A stretch of 64,000 bases of DNA from the human T2T-CHM13v2.0 reference genome, Homo sapiens (GCF_009914755.1 NC_060937.1), one strand, 5' to 3'. Shown: positions 25,390 through 57,557, numbered from the stretch's first letter. Translations and numbers: made by a program. The notes: a model not told the origin generated them from the sequence alone.

Positions 25390-27907
25390 ACTTTTGTCTT
25401 ACTCTTAAACAAAATGACAACTAACATTTATGTTGGAACCGCACTTGTTCATCAATTGCAACTACAGTTTGGCTATGGATACAAGATTCAACAAAAATCA
25501 ACTGAAAGCATTTAGTGAGAGTCGGTTATATGGGATTTGTGATTAAGAGTATTGTATATTTAATTGTATGTTTATTTGTAAGTTGCACATCACACATCTG
25601 TATCAACATTTATAATAAACATATATTAAACACGCACACACACAGACACACTTTTTACCCCTGAAAGCTGGCTGCAAACATCTCTACTAGCACACCACTG
25701 CATACACTGGTGTAATGTAATTCCAGACTTCTAGGACTGGAGCCTGCAAAACTTTTTTGACAGCACCCTACTTTGACAAGCCAGAAACCTCATGGCCTAC
25801 CTCCCTCATTCACTTTCCATATGGCGTAGGAAAAGGGATGCCCACATACATCTGGCAGAATCACATACATTTTTCATTTGGCAATAGCGGCATGCGTGGT
25901 TCATATTTGAACCTAGTGTGTTTATGTGTTCAAGTGTAGTTACCAGAACAGCATAGGCAGATGCTAGAATATACCATCACACACTAACCAGACAACACAC
26001 AGTGAACTAAGTTGGCAATAAAGACACAAAACCAACTGTAAGTTATAATTCAAAAGCAAGAAAAGCAGCACTTATAAAGCATGACAACCTCAAGACAGCA
26101 CTAATAGCAAATTGTTCCTCTTCCAAACTGCAGGAATTCCAACTATGCTGCATATGTGGGCCACAGAGCTAAGCCGTGCACAGCAGCCAGATCTCTGGGA
26201 AGGAACTGAAGTTAAACCCTTGGTAAATGCTAGTTCTGTGCTAGTTTTAGTGTGTGAATAATAAGCTGTACCGACTCCTAATGACTCACTTCTTAGGTCA
26301 CAAATACTTAGGCTTATATAAAAATGAAAGTGTCTGGAACTGCCTGTCATTGACACAATAGGCATGCAAAAAGAACCTGAGTGATCTGCTTAGCAGGAGG
26401 CAGGCTGGGCATTGGGTTAGCAGTACTGGCTCTAGAGAATTCTACCGCATAACTGATATCTTACACAGAACAGCTCTCTTCCTGGCTTGGGCTTCACTAA
26501 GGCCATTTCTAATCACCACCAAGTTTGATTTCAACTTTGGAGTCAATGCAATCCTTGTGCTAAATGAGATCCTTCCTGGTAGTTACTGGCACTGTCTGGC
26601 ATATTTGTGGAAGCATTAACTCCTTGAGGTAGTCAATTAGTTGCTGCTGGAGCTAAGTCCACGACAGAATTTCTGCAGTCAGCTCTAGGCAGGCCCACCT
26701 CCTGCCACACTGCTCTCCAGGCACATGGAAGGGTTTCCCTCACCACCAGTTTACTCCTGGGGCCTAGCTCGGTCTCAGGCAGGAGAGCACTCAGGAAGAC
26801 AGCCATATATCACTCCACTCGAGGCTGCCTCTGGTCTGGAAATTGTGGGTCTGCTTCACCGTGTGCTGTAAAGAGCTTATCTTTCCGTTTATTTGTTTCT
26901 CCAGATCGAAACAGCATTGGCAGAGGGACAGAGCCAGCACCGGGACTGACCAGGAGCTGTTCCTCCTTCGCCTCATTTTAGAGTTGATTTGGGGGTTAAA
27001 GGTTACGCTTTTTGAGAGAGGTAGTAAAACATTAATTATGGGTAAAGTTCTTTCTCTCTTGCTCCATAGATTAACTGGCTGATCCTGTTTGCTCTATGAA
27101 GTGAACCATATTTGCTAAGGGTAATTTGAAATCGGCAGTGCAAATGGCCCCCTGACTTCCTCCTGCTGTTGGGCACTGTGCTGAGGTGAGTGCTGCAGGG
27201 CTCATGGTCATCAAGTCCCCCCAGTGGGACAAATACTGCATATCTTGTGAGAACCACTGGATTACTAAGATGTTAGCAGCCCCATGGACTTCCCGGAGCC
27301 TGTCCCTCATCAGGAAATGTGCCATCTAACGCATGCACATCAGTTCACAGTGATGCACAGTAAAACCGAAAGCCAAGGGTCTGATTAACTGGCATCACTG
27401 AAGGCTCTGGTTTTATTCCCATCCTGGGTGACCTGGGAGCATCCTTCAGATTGTGCATCTAGGGTATGATGGGTTTATTTGTTCATCACCGTCTTCCTCG
27501 GGTGTAGAGCAGGGTCTGGCATGGAGCAGGCGTTCCGTATTTGCTGAGCGAACACACAGATCGTATGACCTGCTCTACACCTGTTGCTTGCTGCCTTCAC
27601 GTCACTTACGGTCTCACTGGGGAGATGTGAGTGTTACACGTGAGACCATGAGACAGCAGGAAAAGACTAGCAGAGCCAGGAGCTAAAACATGGGCAAGGC
27701 CAGCAGGTCCCGGCAGGAAGTCTGCGGGCTCTGAGGCCCTCGTGGGCACAGGGCTGAGGTTGGGCAGGCGCCTCCGCGTCTGCTGGGCAAAGATCAGGTT
27801 GGCGCCGGGGTGGGAGGCTGGACAGGTGTGGAGGAGCAGGAAACACATTCCAGGTTTCCCTAAGGAAATGGGAAAAACCAGTTGTTTTAAAAATTGAACT
27901 GAATTCT

Positions 27908-54535: not shown

Positions 54536-55480
54536 GCAACGGTGGGACAAATCTTCTGAAAGCTTCCTAATCAACATTTTTCTGTTAAAATGTACTGCAT
54601 ATGCACATTTATATATTGGGAGCATTTTAAAGGTTTACTTTGCTCTGAAAGAAATATTTAATGTGTTTCAAAATAATTTTGAGATTATTCTAGTTGTGGT
54701 TAAGCTTAAAGGCTGAGAAATTACTTAACTATTCAAATAGAGCCTGTGCAACTATATGAAATGTCATTATGGAGACACTCATTATGCTTTTCCTGTAGAA
54801 CAAAACAAGTAGTTGGGTTTATCTGCAATTAGGGTTTTTTGAGGAACGTGAGGGTGGCTGGACAAGTTGGGTAGACCTGCAAAAGGGCCAGCGGCTCTCT
54901 GCATGGCTCTGGCCATCCGGCACTTTCCCTTGACTTGCACAGGCTGCCCTGTGCCTTGGAGTTGCTGCAGTGACCTTGCCTGTCCTTGCTTGTGGGTCTG
55001 CTGCTGCTGCTTTGCTGCTGATGGCTTTAGCACAGAGGGGGCCCGTGCTTTTTATTGCTCACCAGAGGCAGATGCATCTACTGCTGTGCTGTCTCGCACA
55101 CCCCCTATGCAGCATCATTAGGAAAGCTAGACACAAGTGATTCAGAATGGCTTAGGGGTTTATCTAAGCCAAGTCAGATAACCTCTTGAACTATCTTTTT
55201 GTAGCCATGAAAGCAGAGTATATTTCCAGAGGTATAAAGATGAAAACTGTTTAAATGGGTCAAAAAAAGTAACGTGACTTTTTTCTCCAACAGTTTGTTT
55301 TGTCCTAAAGCTGGTCAAGTAACTTGAATCTCACCTGTGATGAGAGCTACATTTTAACATGGGTTTGGTTATGGGAAGAGGCAAGACTTTGGTGGGAGAA
55401 ACAGGACAAAGTGCCATTGACCTTGAGCGGAGTTCTCTGTGAAAATGGATTGGCTAATACCTCATGTGTTGCCAATGCAG

Positions 55481-55554
55481 GTGTACCCAGGAAGGATGTG
55501 GGAAACACTTTGCATCACCCAGCAAGCTGAAACGACATGCCAAGGCCCACGAGG
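55481..55554 (+). CDS. GTF3A: TFIIIA exon 5
   Basis: [10 protein letters not shown]...HAKAHE; donor G|GTGTGT. Confidence 0.96.
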
Positions 55555-55618
55555 GTGTGTACGGATAGCCTGGGTGTGCTCCGAGGGGGATGCCAAATCC
55601 TGGGCGCCTTTGAATCTG

Positions 55619-55651
55619 TTCTGTGATCACGCTGAAAAGATGGGAACCCTG
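55619..55651 (+). repeat. Intron 5 duplicated motif, copy 1
   Basis: TTCTGTGATCACGCTGAAAAGATGGGAACCCTG; 30/33 identical to 56625-56657. Confidence 0.9.
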
Positions 55652-56603
55652 TGAACAGGGGACACCATCCTGCTTATTTGGGTCTTACACTCTTGTCCAA
55701 AGAGGCACTGTATATGTCTGTTTTTCCACTACCGTATCATTGCTGTTCACATGTAATGTGTTGTTTGTTCACAACAAGCGCCTGGTTACACATTACACTG
55801 ACGAATGTGCTGATGCTCCAGCCATGGCTTTGATGCTTCTGTCATTTTTAACCTCTTCTATTAATATTTACTGCCTGTGCCATTCTTTTCCTTGTTGGCC
55901 ATTCACAAGGCTTGGATAATCGTGTGACATTTTGAGAGCCATCAGATGTTACGTTTCTCAAAAAAAAAAAAAAAAGACTTGATTATATTAACTATTTGAA
56001 TCTATGATCTGTTTCCTTGAGGGATTTTTGCTAATCTGTATTTCAATTTCCCAGGTCCTAGAATTTATGATTTTTTTTTTTTTAAGAGGTTAGTAGCTAA
56101 CAGTGAGAGGCAGCCTCATTGTTTTTAGTTTCTAGTTGGGTGGAACTCAGCCCTAGTGTTGTATACTTATTAATCCCATTTTAGTGCTTTGCACATATCC
56201 ATTGTTATTCAGTGTTTTTCTCTGGGTCCTTCCAGTTTATTTTCTTCCTTAGCTGTACTCTTTTAAAAAAAAAAAACAAAAAAAAACTTTTTTGTTTTTT
56301 TTTTTTGTGATAAAGTTAAAATATAATGTACCCTACTTTTTTTGTGCAGTATGACACTTACAAGATGGCCAGACTAGAGGAAGCCAGAGGTGGGCATGGT
56401 AACACTACTGAAAAGTTGGTGGTGTGCCATGGACAAGGGACCGACTGCAGAGTATGTTTGCTGAGGAAAATAGAGGCGAGGATAGAGCAGGCAGGGGAAG
56501 GGAAATAAGACATGGAGATAGGAGGTTAAAGCAGTTGGGAGTCCATACACAGCCTACCCAACTTCCTGAGAACTCTTAGAGAGGAAAAGGCATCCTTAGG
56601 CAT

Positions 56604-56677
56604 CCTTCCTGTGAAGTTTGCCTATTCCGTGATCACGCTGAGAAGATGGGAACTCTGAAGTTTGCTTCACAGGAAGG
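56604..56677 (+). other. Intron 5 hairpin (13-bp perfect stem) enclosing motif copy 2 and overlapping a cryptic donor
   Basis: CCTTCCTGTGAAG (56604-56616) / CTTCACAGGAAGG (56665-56677); AAG|GTAAAA at 56676/56677. Confidence 0.75.
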
Positions 56678-56891
56678 TAAAATCCTTAAAGGGAGGCACC
56701 TTGCTGTGCCACTGTTCAGTTTTACTATAACATCAATCTTTTTTTAGTTTTTATTCCCACCTCAAGAGGCTGAGTTGAATACTATTAGGCGGGGAATGGA
56801 AAATTATATAGGCACCTAAGTTTCCTTTCTAGTTATGGTCAGTGTTTACACTGAGTATTCATGACAGACAATGCACCAATTTTTTTAATAG

Positions 56892-56972
56892 GCTATGTAT
56901 GTCAAAAAGGATGTTCCTTTGTGGCAAAAACATGGACGGAACTTCTGAAACATGTGAGAGAAACCCATAAAG
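56892..56972 (+). CDS. GTF3A: TFIIIA exon 6 (finger 6, 81 nt, phase 1-1)
   Basis: [26 protein letters not shown]. Confidence 0.97.
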
Positions 56973-57557
56973 GTAAGGCAGGCATGAATGGCAGGCATGG
57001 TGTAAATGTTTGTCCCCACAGAACTGATTTAGTGCTTTTCAAGAGTGAAATGCTGTGTGCTTTAAAGTAAAAGGGTTTCTCTATGATATTTTGTGAAGTG
57101 CTGGGTATGATGTTGTTGGAAAGGTGAGCAGAGCTGTGCCAGGTCTCTGAGCCACCCCACCATGCACAATTAGCATGCTGAAGGCGGTGGCAGGTCTGTA
57201 GTGAAGAATTTCGGGAGGCACTGCTGTTCTGTGGGACCGCCTGGGAAACAGTACCCTGCATACTGGGGGACAAGGAAGGACACTGGTCTGCTTCATTTTC
57301 TGTACCTCCCCACAGTCACCTTCCTGAGAGCCCTGCCTCTTGGCAAGTGAACAATGACTGTGTGGCATTTAAGAACTTCAGAGAATTGAGACAAACTTCC
57401 TAGGTGATAAAAACTGGGGTTGTTTCCTTGGGAATTTCTGATTTGTATATAGTGATCAGGTTTCAGGCACTGAATGTTACTTATATATTAGGTATTAATT
57501 TTTTCTAAATGGTAATATCTGGGGAAATTTGTGAAATTTGTCTGTCTGTCCCACCAG

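What the first reader, a model, noticed from the sequence alone, without database searches (positions are those of the whole stretch)
56350..56678. Candidate poison exon whose donor is buried in a perfect 13-bp stem
Seen: strong acceptor-like tactttttttgtgcag| (AG 56348-56349) and donor-like AAG|GTAAAA (56676/56677). Spliced to exon 5 (phase 1) this reads G|TA TGA, an immediate stop far upstream of the last junction, so the product would be an NMD target. The stem CCTTCCTGTGAAG (56604-56616)/CTTCACAGGAAGG (56665-56677) pairs the exonic donor bases and the first G of GT. It encloses the duplicated motif, an inner TTCCGT/ATGGGA helix and a direct repeat TGAAGTTTGC (56612, 56656). Weaker alternative acceptors lie at 56579 and 56599. 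Inference: a structure-gated AS-NMD switch for TFIIIA level.
Basis: partly seen in the sequence, partly recalled or inferred. Interest (0 to 1): 0.75.

Follow-up and report, generated by a model that had tools for sequence, protein, structure and literature searches.

The report
Unproven cryptic poison exon in GTF3A
Intron 5 of the human TFIIIA gene holds an exon-like stretch that would stop the protein if spliced in, with a real 13-bp hairpin over its donor site, but nothing available shows that cells use it or that it works as a switch.

Summary
The sequence features are all present. There is an acceptor-like site ending at AG 56348-49 and a donor-like AAG|GTAAAA at 56676/77. Reading from exon 5 gives an immediate in-frame stop (G|TA TGA). 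A perfect 13-bp inverted repeat (56604-16/56665-77) covers donor positions -12 to +1. The hairpin is rarer than composition predicts: 2 in 64 kb against 0.09 in shuffles.

The exon-like pair of splice sites is not rare. By a rough scoring matrix recalled from memory, 21 other equally good pairs lie in this window. The predicted cost of opening the donor (6.3-7.4 kcal/mol) falls inside the range of GTF3A's own constitutive donors (1.8-10.2).

No evidence of use was found. RefSeq gives one transcript. No paper found links GTF3A to a poison exon. The one NMD-inhibition table I could read lists only exon 5 as a GTF3A cassette. Junction reads and cross-species conservation could not be tested here.

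A likeness to 5S rRNA, as in the plant TFIIIA exon, was tested and not found.

Two things remain unexplained. A 36-nt motif occurs twice in the genome, both times in this intron. The 5' arm also carries an 11-nt perfect complement to exon 5.

Most likely this is a largely silent pseudo-exon.

The parts
56323..56327 (+). Possible branch point ATAAT, with the branch A at 56326, 24 nt before the exon start. No AG lies between it and 56348.
   Evidence: Read directly. The yUnAy consensus is recalled, not tested.
56335..56349 (+). Acceptor-like site ACTTTTTTTGTGCAG|TA
   Evidence: rough matrix score 6.64, above all 8 real GTF3A acceptors (0.03-6.15). Only 2 of 766 AGs in the gene score this high.
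56350..56676 (+). Candidate 327-nt pseudo-exon or poison exon. It is a purine-rich island with exon-like composition.
   Evidence: GC 0.49 and purine 0.61, against GC 0.19-0.37 in the 300 nt upstream. Read from the exon 5 phase it translates as V*... with 4 in-frame stops.
56352..56354 (+). First in-frame stop (TGA) when the candidate exon is spliced to exon 5
56674..56682 (+). Donor-like site AAG|GTAAAA
   Evidence: score 3.42 (real donors 1.43-7.30); 17 of 677 GTs in the gene score as high. U1 duplex -6.8 kcal/mol (real donors -4.5 to -10.2).
56604..56616 (+). 5' arm of the 13-bp stem, CCTTCCTGTGAAG
   Evidence: I25
56665..56677 (+). 3' arm of the stem, CTTCACAGGAAGG. It covers donor positions -12 to +1.
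   Evidence: I25; positions -3 to +1 have P(unpaired) of 0.01 or less; positions +2 to +6 have 0.62-0.99.
56622..56657 (+). Copy B of the 36-nt motif, inside the hairpin loop
   Evidence: D1; 32/36, E 9e-8
55616..55651 (+). Copy A of the 36-nt motif, 62-97 nt downstream of the exon 5 donor
   Evidence: (D1), (the 25-nt core occurs only at these 2 places in the 3.1-Gb genome)
56609..56621 (+). Direct repeat CTGTGAAGTTTGC. Its partner CTCTGAAGTTTGC lies at 56653-56665.
   Evidence: D8
55488..55498 (+). Exon 5 segment CAGGAAGGATG, perfectly complementary to 56601-56611, which overlaps the 5' arm
   Evidence: duplex -21.5 kcal/mol
55481..55554 (+). GTF3A exon 5, the upstream partner of the proposed junction. 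Both its splice sites are weak.
   Evidence: Hub table; acceptor 1.42, donor AGG|GTGTGT 2.92. NMD-responsive cassette in PMC8361881.

Best explanation
The stretch 56350-56676 is most likely an unannotated pseudo-exon in GTF3A intron 5. It is a purine-rich, exon-like island with a strong acceptor-like site and a middling donor-like site. If it were ever included, it would put a stop two codons after exon 5 and send the mRNA to NMD.

It is most likely silent or used only at noise level. The local 13-bp hairpin pairs the last 12 exonic bases and the G of GT, so it adds some repression of U1 binding. It is not shown to be a regulated gate.

The perfect stem may be a by-product of local rearrangement. 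One candidate is a template-switch mutation, given the direct repeat next to the inverted repeat.

Shown: the sequence features, the stop, the predicted hairpin, and the base rates. Inferred: silence or low use, the NMD fate, and the origin of the stem.
For: - The features are present.
- The hairpin is predicted to dominate locally. P(stem) is 0.999 in 96 nt and 0.91 in 181 nt. MFE is -29.3 kcal/mol, z = -2.58.
- Equally good site pairs are common: 9 others on the + strand and 12 on the - strand in 64 kb.
- The donor opening cost is 6.3-7.4 kcal/mol and the U1 duplex is -6.8, so the net is about 0. This sits at the weak end of the real donors.
- RefSeq gives 1 of 1 transcript, without this exon (hub table).
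- In PMC8361881 Table S1 (supplement searched, 1 GTF3A row), the only NMD-responsive GTF3A cassette has the lengths of exon 5 (74 nt) and exon 4 (89 nt) (methods passages).
- No GTF3A entry appears in the readable supplements of PMC11632617, PMC11387194 and PMC6547761.
- 0 papers hold both 'GTF3A' and 'poison exon'.
- The exon body matches only itself in the genome. It is therefore not a young repeat, and no GTF3A retrocopy carries it.
- Template switching is described in print as a source of perfect hairpins (PMC8794818 and PMC10710096; titles and abstract starts only).
Against: - The acceptor outscores all 8 real GTF3A acceptors, and the donor is mid-range. A plausible branch point and an AG-free tract are present. 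The body is purine-rich like real exons. Some inclusion would therefore not be surprising.
- The scoring matrix is a rough one recalled from memory, not MaxEnt or SpliceAI.
- The literature evidence for absence is thin. It rests on one HeLa table and on supplements that may have been cut when stored. One supplement was unreadable.
- RefSeq often omits NMD isoforms.
- The hairpin is 10-20 times rarer than shuffles predict. It encloses a motif that is unique to this intron. Its 5' arm also complements exon 5. This hints at more than accident.
Confidence: 0.5

Rival explanations
1. One reading: a regulated poison exon whose donor is gated by the 13-bp stem. When the stem opens, through a helicase, a protein or a competing pairing, U1 can bind. 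The exon is then included and GTF3A mRNA is degraded by NMD, which sets the TFIIIA level.
For: - The sites are strong or adequate and the stop is immediate.
- The stem is stable and pairs donor positions -12 to +1.
- The 5' arm has a second possible partner of similar strength in exon 5: -21.5 kcal/mol against -25.0 for arm with arm. This would give a two-state design.
- TFIIIA in plants is controlled by a suicide exon (PMC3378873; abstract, introduction and start of methods read).
- RNA structures control the BRD2/BRD3 poison exons (PMC10789245; title and abstract start only).
Against: - No evidence of use was found in anything I could read.
- The donor opening cost is not an outlier among real donors.
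- Mean unpaired probability is 0.50, against 0.13-0.53 for real donors.
- Stem probability falls to 0.09-0.60 in contexts of 281-681 nt.
- The base rate of such pseudo-exons is high.
- Conservation is untested.
Confidence: 0.1
2. The functional unit is the duplicated 36-nt motif, not the exon. In this view it is a sequence-specific binding site on the pre-mRNA or the DNA. It lies 62-97 nt downstream of the weak, NMD-relevant exon 5 and again 1 kb further on, and it tunes exon 5 inclusion or intron 5 removal. Copy B would be displayed in the hairpin loop.
For: - The 25-nt core, allowing up to 3 mismatches, occurs at only 2 places in 3.1 Gb. Both are here and both are on the sense strand.
- The 36 nt are the only significant similarity between the two halves of the intron (32/36, E 9e-8). 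The flanks are not alike.
- Exon 5 has weak sites and is the reported NMD-responsive cassette.
- CTGARAAGATGG-like 12-mers cluster here. 5 of the 26 window matches lie on the + strand in 55437-56649.
Against: - The two copies share no fold: 8 predicted pairs, 0 compensatory, -4.05 kcal/mol. Copy A folds with z = -0.81.
- No known RNA family matches.
- Two copies at 89% identity could simply be a small neutral duplication.
- The 12-mer count over the whole window is only mildly raised: 26 against 17.06 expected, with 3 of 100 shuffles reaching 26.
- No binding data are available.
Confidence: 0.15
3. A decoy exon. The exon-like unit engages U2AF/U2 and U1 without being spliced in, and so slows removal of intron 5, giving intron retention or detention rather than inclusion.
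For: - A strong acceptor is paired with a partly masked donor.
- Decoy exons are described in print (PMC6097662; title and abstract start only).
Against: No data on GTF3A intron 5 retention were seen. This reading rests purely on analogy.
Confidence: 0.05

Closest known systems
Pseudo-exons and cryptic poison exons of human introns (e.g. the catalogue in PMC11632617)
   Same: It is an intronic AG...GT pair with exon-like composition, and inclusion would bring a premature stop.
   Different: No inclusion evidence was seen. GTF3A does not occur in that paper's readable supplement.
5' splice sites held in stem-loops: MAPT exon 10 and SMN2 exon 7 TSL2 (recalled from memory, not looked up here)
   Same: A local hairpin pairs bases that U1 must contact.
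   Different: Here the stem covers only positions -12 to +1 and leaves +2 to +6 free. It is much longer (13 bp) and has a 48-nt loop. Its exon is not known to be used.
Paired complementary regions that control the BRD2/BRD3 poison exons (PMC10789245; title and abstract start seen)
   Same: RNA base pairing is proposed to set inclusion of an NMD exon.
   Different: Those pairings are conserved and were tested experimentally. This one is neither.
Plant TFIIIA suicide exon with the 5S rRNA mimic P5SM, skipped in response to ribosomal protein L5 (PMC3378873)
   Same: It is the same gene family and the same logic: a cassette exon with an in-frame stop.
   Different: No 5S rRNA likeness was found. 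Rfam 5S_rRNA gave no match at E up to 10. Local alignment to a human 5S gene was at chance level: 189 of 3000 random segments scored as well for copy A and 1306 of 3000 for copy B. All 5 papers found for '5S rRNA mimic' concern plants.
Hairpins created by template-switch mutations (PMC8794818, PMC10710096; titles and abstract starts)
   Same: A perfect inverted repeat lies next to a direct repeat of part of one arm (D8 and I25).
   Different: The ancestral state is unknown because no outgroup sequence was available.

Membership tests
Poison (NMD) cassette exon | Flanked by usable 3' and 5' splice sites | tested here: met
   acceptor 6.64 (real 0.03-6.15), donor 3.42 (real 1.43-7.30). The matrix is rough and recalled from memory; no MaxEnt or SpliceAI was run.
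Poison (NMD) cassette exon | Inclusion gives a stop more than 50-55 nt upstream of a downstream exon junction | tested here: met
   TGA at 56352-56354, 322 nt before the exon's 3' end, with four junctions downstream.
Poison (NMD) cassette exon | Inclusion is seen in transcripts and rises when NMD is blocked | tested here: inconclusive
   No junction data were on hand. RefSeq lists 1 of 1 transcript without it. The single GTF3A row in PMC8361881 Table S1 is exon 5. The readable supplements of three other papers lack GTF3A.
Poison (NMD) cassette exon | Conserved across species (for regulated ones) | not testable with these tools
   No other vertebrate genome is held. The own-genome search states that it has no relatives.
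5' splice site-occluding stem-loop | The stem pairs the bases that U1 contacts (-3 to +6) | tested here: inconclusive
   4 of the 9 positions (-3 to +1) are paired; +2 to +6 are free.
5' splice site-occluding stem-loop | Occlusion is stronger than at ordinary donors | tested here: not met
   opening cost 7.4, 6.3 and 6.3 kcal/mol at +-60, 100 and 200 nt. The 8 real donors span 1.8-10.2, and the exon 5 donor is higher at 8.9-10.2.
5' splice site-occluding stem-loop | Disrupting and compensatory mutations change splicing | not testable with these tools
   This is a bench experiment.
P5SM-type 5S rRNA mimic exon | 5S rRNA-like sequence and structure inside the exon | tested here: not met
   no 5S_rRNA match at E up to 10 in 55300-57100; alignment scores were at chance level.
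P5SM-type 5S rRNA mimic exon | Binding of ribosomal protein L5 (uL18) changes exon use | not testable with these tools
   This is a bench experiment.
C/D box snoRNA (SNORD46-like) | Match to the family model above its gathering score | tested here: not met
   56574-56643 scores 18.1 bits against a gathering score of 40, E = 1.1. The C box is not aligned.

The most novel reading that the evidence does not exclude
Human GTF3A carries an RNA switch in intron 5 that sets the TFIIIA level through unproductive splicing. The 5' arm (56601-56616) would pair either with the 3' arm, masking the poison-exon donor, or with the start of exon 5 (55488-55498), masking the weak exon 5 and freeing the donor. 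The genome-unique 36-nt motif, present in two copies, would be the sensor site for a protein of the 5S RNP pathway, such as TFIIIA itself or RPL5. This would be an animal counterpart of the plant P5SM suicide exon, reached by a different RNA.
Probability: 0.06. Interest if true: 0.8.

Novelty: new member of a known kind. Interest (0 to 1): 0.3.

Why it matters
TFIIIA is the dedicated factor for 5S rRNA genes. Its dosage is tied to ribosome assembly, to the 5S RNP-p53 checkpoint and to antiviral RNA5SP141 biogenesis. These last links are recalled knowledge; the reference to Naesens et al. 2022 was seen only in a citation list.

Plants control TFIIIA by a suicide exon. No such loop is known in animals. 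A working poison exon here would fill that gap and would give an antisense-oligonucleotide handle on TFIIIA level.

As it stands, the value of this check is mainly negative. The eye-catching stem over a donor sits on a kind of pseudo-exon that is common, and its predicted masking effect is ordinary.

Tried and rejected
- **5S rRNA mimic.** An Rfam scan of 55300-57100 at E up to 10 gave 7 weak matches, none to 5S and none near its gathering score. I fetched a human 5S gene from the same genome and aligned both motif copies to it. Scores were 17 and 14, reached by 193 and 955 of 2000 shuffles and by 189 and 1306 of 3000 random window segments. The short GATGGGA..CCTG likeness of copy A to 5S positions 81-101 is therefore at chance level.
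- **snoRNA.** SNORD46 matched at E = 1.1, below its cut-off.
- **Repeat or retrocopy origin.** The exon body, copy A and the hairpin region match only themselves in the genome. That search skips very common words, so an ancient repeat is not excluded. The window file carries no soft-masking.
- **Longer duplication.** A MAFFT alignment suggested about 130 nt of A/B homology. BLAST supports only the 36-nt core.
- **Shared structure of the two motif copies.** None was found.
- **The motif elsewhere.** There were 0 exact matches in the prokaryote genome collection and 0 in the viral collection.
- **Structure around the exon 5 donor.** z = -1.36, not significant.
- **Literature.** None gave a paper on GTF3A alternative exons in intron 5. 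GTF3A mentions in PMC8395096, PMC5137021, PMC6642147, PMC7676395 and PMC13506345 were irrelevant. PMC12428622 lists a GTF3A skipped-exon event without coordinates, and its supplement could not be read.

Full report
**What is in the sequence**

The window's + strand at 55400-57050 shows GTF3A exon 5 (55481-55554), intron 5 (55555-56891) and exon 6.

Inside the intron, tactttttttgtgcag|TATGAC ends in AG at 56348-56349. CAGGAAG|GTAAAA has the G of GT at 56677. A possible branch point ATAAT lies at 56323-56327, with no AG between it and the acceptor. This is read directly; the branch-point consensus is recalled.

From the hub's coordinates, the CDS through exon 5 is 201+101+97+89+74 = 562 nt, which is phase 1. 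Splicing exon 5 to 56350 therefore reads G|TA TGA. The 327-nt unit is a multiple of three and contains four in-frame stops. With four junctions downstream, the stop fits the standard 50-55-nt rule for NMD. This is inference from established knowledge.

**The hairpin**

The repeat finder reports arms 56604-56616 and 56665-56677: 13 nt, 100% complementary, 48 nt apart. It also reports:
- the direct repeat CTGTGAAGTTTGC / CTCTGAAGTTTGC at 56609 and 56653;
- a tandem AGGCATCCTT x2 at 56588-56607;
- a 36-nt direct repeat, 55616-55651 and 56622-56657, at 89% identity.

Folded as RNA, 56595-56690 gives -29.3 kcal/mol with the stem extended by one G-U pair. z = -2.58, and 2 of 200 shuffles fold as well.

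Stem probability depends on the context folded:

| Context length | P(stem) |
|---|---|
| 96 nt | 0.999 |
| 181 nt | 0.91 |
| 281 nt | 0.60 |
| 481 nt | 0.09 |
| 681 nt | 0.40 |

So the stem is a strong local hairpin with competitors in long-range equilibrium folds.

In the whole 64-kb window there are 2 non-low-complexity perfect hairpins of at least 13 bp with a loop of up to 100 nt. The other is at 27501-27513/27569-27581. Dinucleotide shuffles give a mean of 0.09, and 8 of 100 have at least one. The hairpin is therefore not a composition accident. Real genomes do make such repeats by mutational routes, for example template switching (PMC8794818 and PMC10710096; titles and abstract starts).

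**How exon-like is it?**

I used a rough splice-site frequency matrix recalled from memory. It is not MaxEnt, so treat it as a ranking only.

- The acceptor scores 6.64. This is above all 8 real GTF3A acceptors (0.03-6.15), and only 2 of 766 AGs in the gene reach it.
- The donor scores 3.42. Real donors score 1.43-7.30, and 17 of 677 GTs reach it.
- The alternative acceptors at 56579 and 56599 score -3.43 and -4.78, which is poor.

The body is an island of GC 0.49 and purine 0.61, and up to 0.72 in 100-nt windows. The intron just upstream is T-rich with GC 0.19-0.37.

Intron 5 holds other decent sites: acceptors at 56054 and 56086, and donors at 56089 and 56390. Shorter units such as 56350-56389 are therefore equally conceivable.

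Against this stands the base rate. Across the window, 9 other pairs on the + strand and 12 on the - strand have both sites at least as good, 50-400 nt apart. My rounded thresholds left the candidate itself out of that list. That is about one per 6 kb per strand, and several lie in masked repeats. Such a pair in an 11-kb gene is expected by chance.

**Does the stem bury the donor?**

Only in part. Positions -3 to +1 have an unpaired probability of 0.01 or less. Positions +2 to +6 have 0.62-0.99. The mean of 0.50 is no lower than that of the 8 real GTF3A donors (0.13-0.53).

The free-energy cost of opening -3 to +6 is 7.4, 6.3 and 6.3 kcal/mol in +-60, 100 and 200-nt contexts. The real donors span 1.8-10.2. 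The highest is the exon 5 donor itself, at 8.9-10.2.

The U1 duplex is -6.8 kcal/mol, against -4.5 to -10.2 for real donors. The net is about zero, so this is a marginal donor but not an outlier.

**Evidence of use**

I found none, but the search was shallow by necessity.

- RefSeq lists one transcript (hub table).
- 0 papers hold 'GTF3A' with 'poison exon'.
- Searches combining GTF3A with NMD, cassette exon, exon skipping, or splic*/intron gave only irrelevant mentions. Two broader listings held no relevant GTF3A paper.
- The readable supplements of PMC11632617, PMC11387194 and PMC6547761 do not contain GTF3A.
- PMC8361881 used nanopore plus short reads in cells with NMD factors knocked down (methods passages). 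Its Table S1 has one GTF3A row. That row is a cassette of 74 nt with an upstream exon of 89 nt, which are the lengths of exons 5 and 4. ENST00000419181 is given as the NMD isoform. So the reported NMD-responsive event at this gene is about exon 5, not an intron-5 exon.
- PMC12428622 lists a GTF3A skipped-exon event without coordinates. Its supplement was unreadable.
- bioRxiv supplements are closed and may hold relevant junction tables.

Conservation could not be tested at all, because no other vertebrate genome is held.

**The 5S-mimic idea**

Plant TFIIIA is regulated by a suicide exon carrying the 5S rRNA mimic P5SM, which is skipped on L5 expression (PMC3378873; abstract, introduction and start of methods). 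All 5 papers found for '5S rRNA mimic' are on plants.

Here, Rfam at E up to 10 gave no 5S match. Alignment of both motif copies to a human 5S gene from the same genome was at chance level. This defining feature is not met.

**What remains odd**

1. The 25-nt core of the duplicated motif, allowing 3 mismatches, occurs at only two places in the 3.1-Gb genome. Both are in this intron and on the sense strand, and the reversed control gives 0. BLAST shows that only the 36-nt core is alike between the two halves of the intron (32/36, E 9e-8). The copies share no fold.
2. The stretch 56601-56611, which overlaps the 5' arm, is perfectly complementary over 11 nt to exon 5 at 55488-55498.
   - This is the only other complement of 11 nt or more to the hairpin region in the 11.2-kb pre-mRNA.
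   - The duplex is -21.5 kcal/mol, against -25.0 for arm with arm.
   - 277 of 2000 shuffles of the region find some 11-mer partner elsewhere in the pre-mRNA, but 0 of 2000 find one in exon 5.
In the 800 x 800 BLAST the same hit has E = 1.9.
3. CTGARAAGATGG-like 12-mers cluster around exon 5 and the candidate exon. 5 of the 26 window matches lie there. The window total of 26 compares with 17.06 expected, and 3 of 100 shuffles reach 26.

Together these leave room for a real cis-element tied to exon 5. They do not establish one.

**Verdict**

The interpretation cannot be decided with these tools, and the circumstantial evidence leans towards an ordinary, largely silent pseudo-exon with an unusual but possibly incidental hairpin.

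My odds:
- Silent or noise-level pseudo-exon: about 0.5.
- The motif as the real element: 0.15.
- Regulated, stem-gated poison exon: 0.1.
- Decoy exon: 0.05.
- The rest is undetermined.

Junction counts under NMD block and a multi-species alignment would settle it quickly.

Noticed in passing
55616-55651 and 56622-56657: A 36-nt motif (32/36 identical) whose 25-nt core occurs nowhere else in the 3.1-Gb genome at up to 3 mismatches. Both copies lie on the sense strand of GTF3A intron 5. Copy A is 62-97 nt downstream of the exon 5 donor.
   Followed up: partly
55488-55498 vs 56601-56611: An 11-nt perfect complementarity between the start of exon 5 (CAGGAAGGATG, coding Q-E-G-C of a zinc finger) and the 5' arm region of the hairpin. 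The duplex is -21.5 kcal/mol. It would compete with the 13-bp stem. The finding is post hoc.
   Followed up: partly
55481-55554 (exon 5): Exon 5 has a weak acceptor (1.42) and a weak donor AGG|GTGTGT (2.92). It also has the highest predicted donor opening cost of the gene, 8.9-10.2 kcal/mol. It is the one GTF3A NMD-responsive cassette listed in PMC8361881 Table S1.
   Followed up: partly
55483-55530: The HLA-presented peptide [10 protein letters not shown], attributed to GTF3A in PMC13254395, is exon 5 read in the -1 frame. The reading runs into a stop after 15 codons. It implies translation of a frame-shifted GTF3A isoform; skipping of the 97-nt exon 3 would give this frame (my inference).
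   Followed up: partly
55437-56649, + strand: Five CTGARAAGATGG-like 12-mers (up to 2 mismatches) lie within 1.2 kb around exon 5 and the candidate exon. Three of them contain AAGATGG.
   Followed up: no
56574-56643: A weak, sub-threshold likeness to SNORD46 (18.1 bits, E = 1.1), centred on AUCCUUAGGC. This lies inside the tandem AGGCATCCTT x2 at 56588-56607.
   Followed up: no
56257-56316: An A-run followed by a T-run forms a 19-bp perfect A/T palindrome (56265-56283/56288-56306) just upstream of the candidate acceptor. The T-runs supply much of the pyrimidine context (I6).
   Followed up: no
27501-27513 / 27569-27581: This is the only other non-low-complexity perfect 13-bp hairpin (loop 55 nt) in the window: GGTGTAGAGCAGG / CCTGCTCTACACC. 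It is intergenic, about 275 nt past the end of a RefSeq enhancer interval (26656-27226).
   Followed up: no
56390 and 56054-56089: Other exon-like units lie in intron 5. The donor GAG|GTGGGC at 56390 would give a 40-nt exon from the same acceptor. The acceptor at 56054 with the donor GAG|GTTAGT at 56089 would give a 34-nt unit.
   Followed up: no
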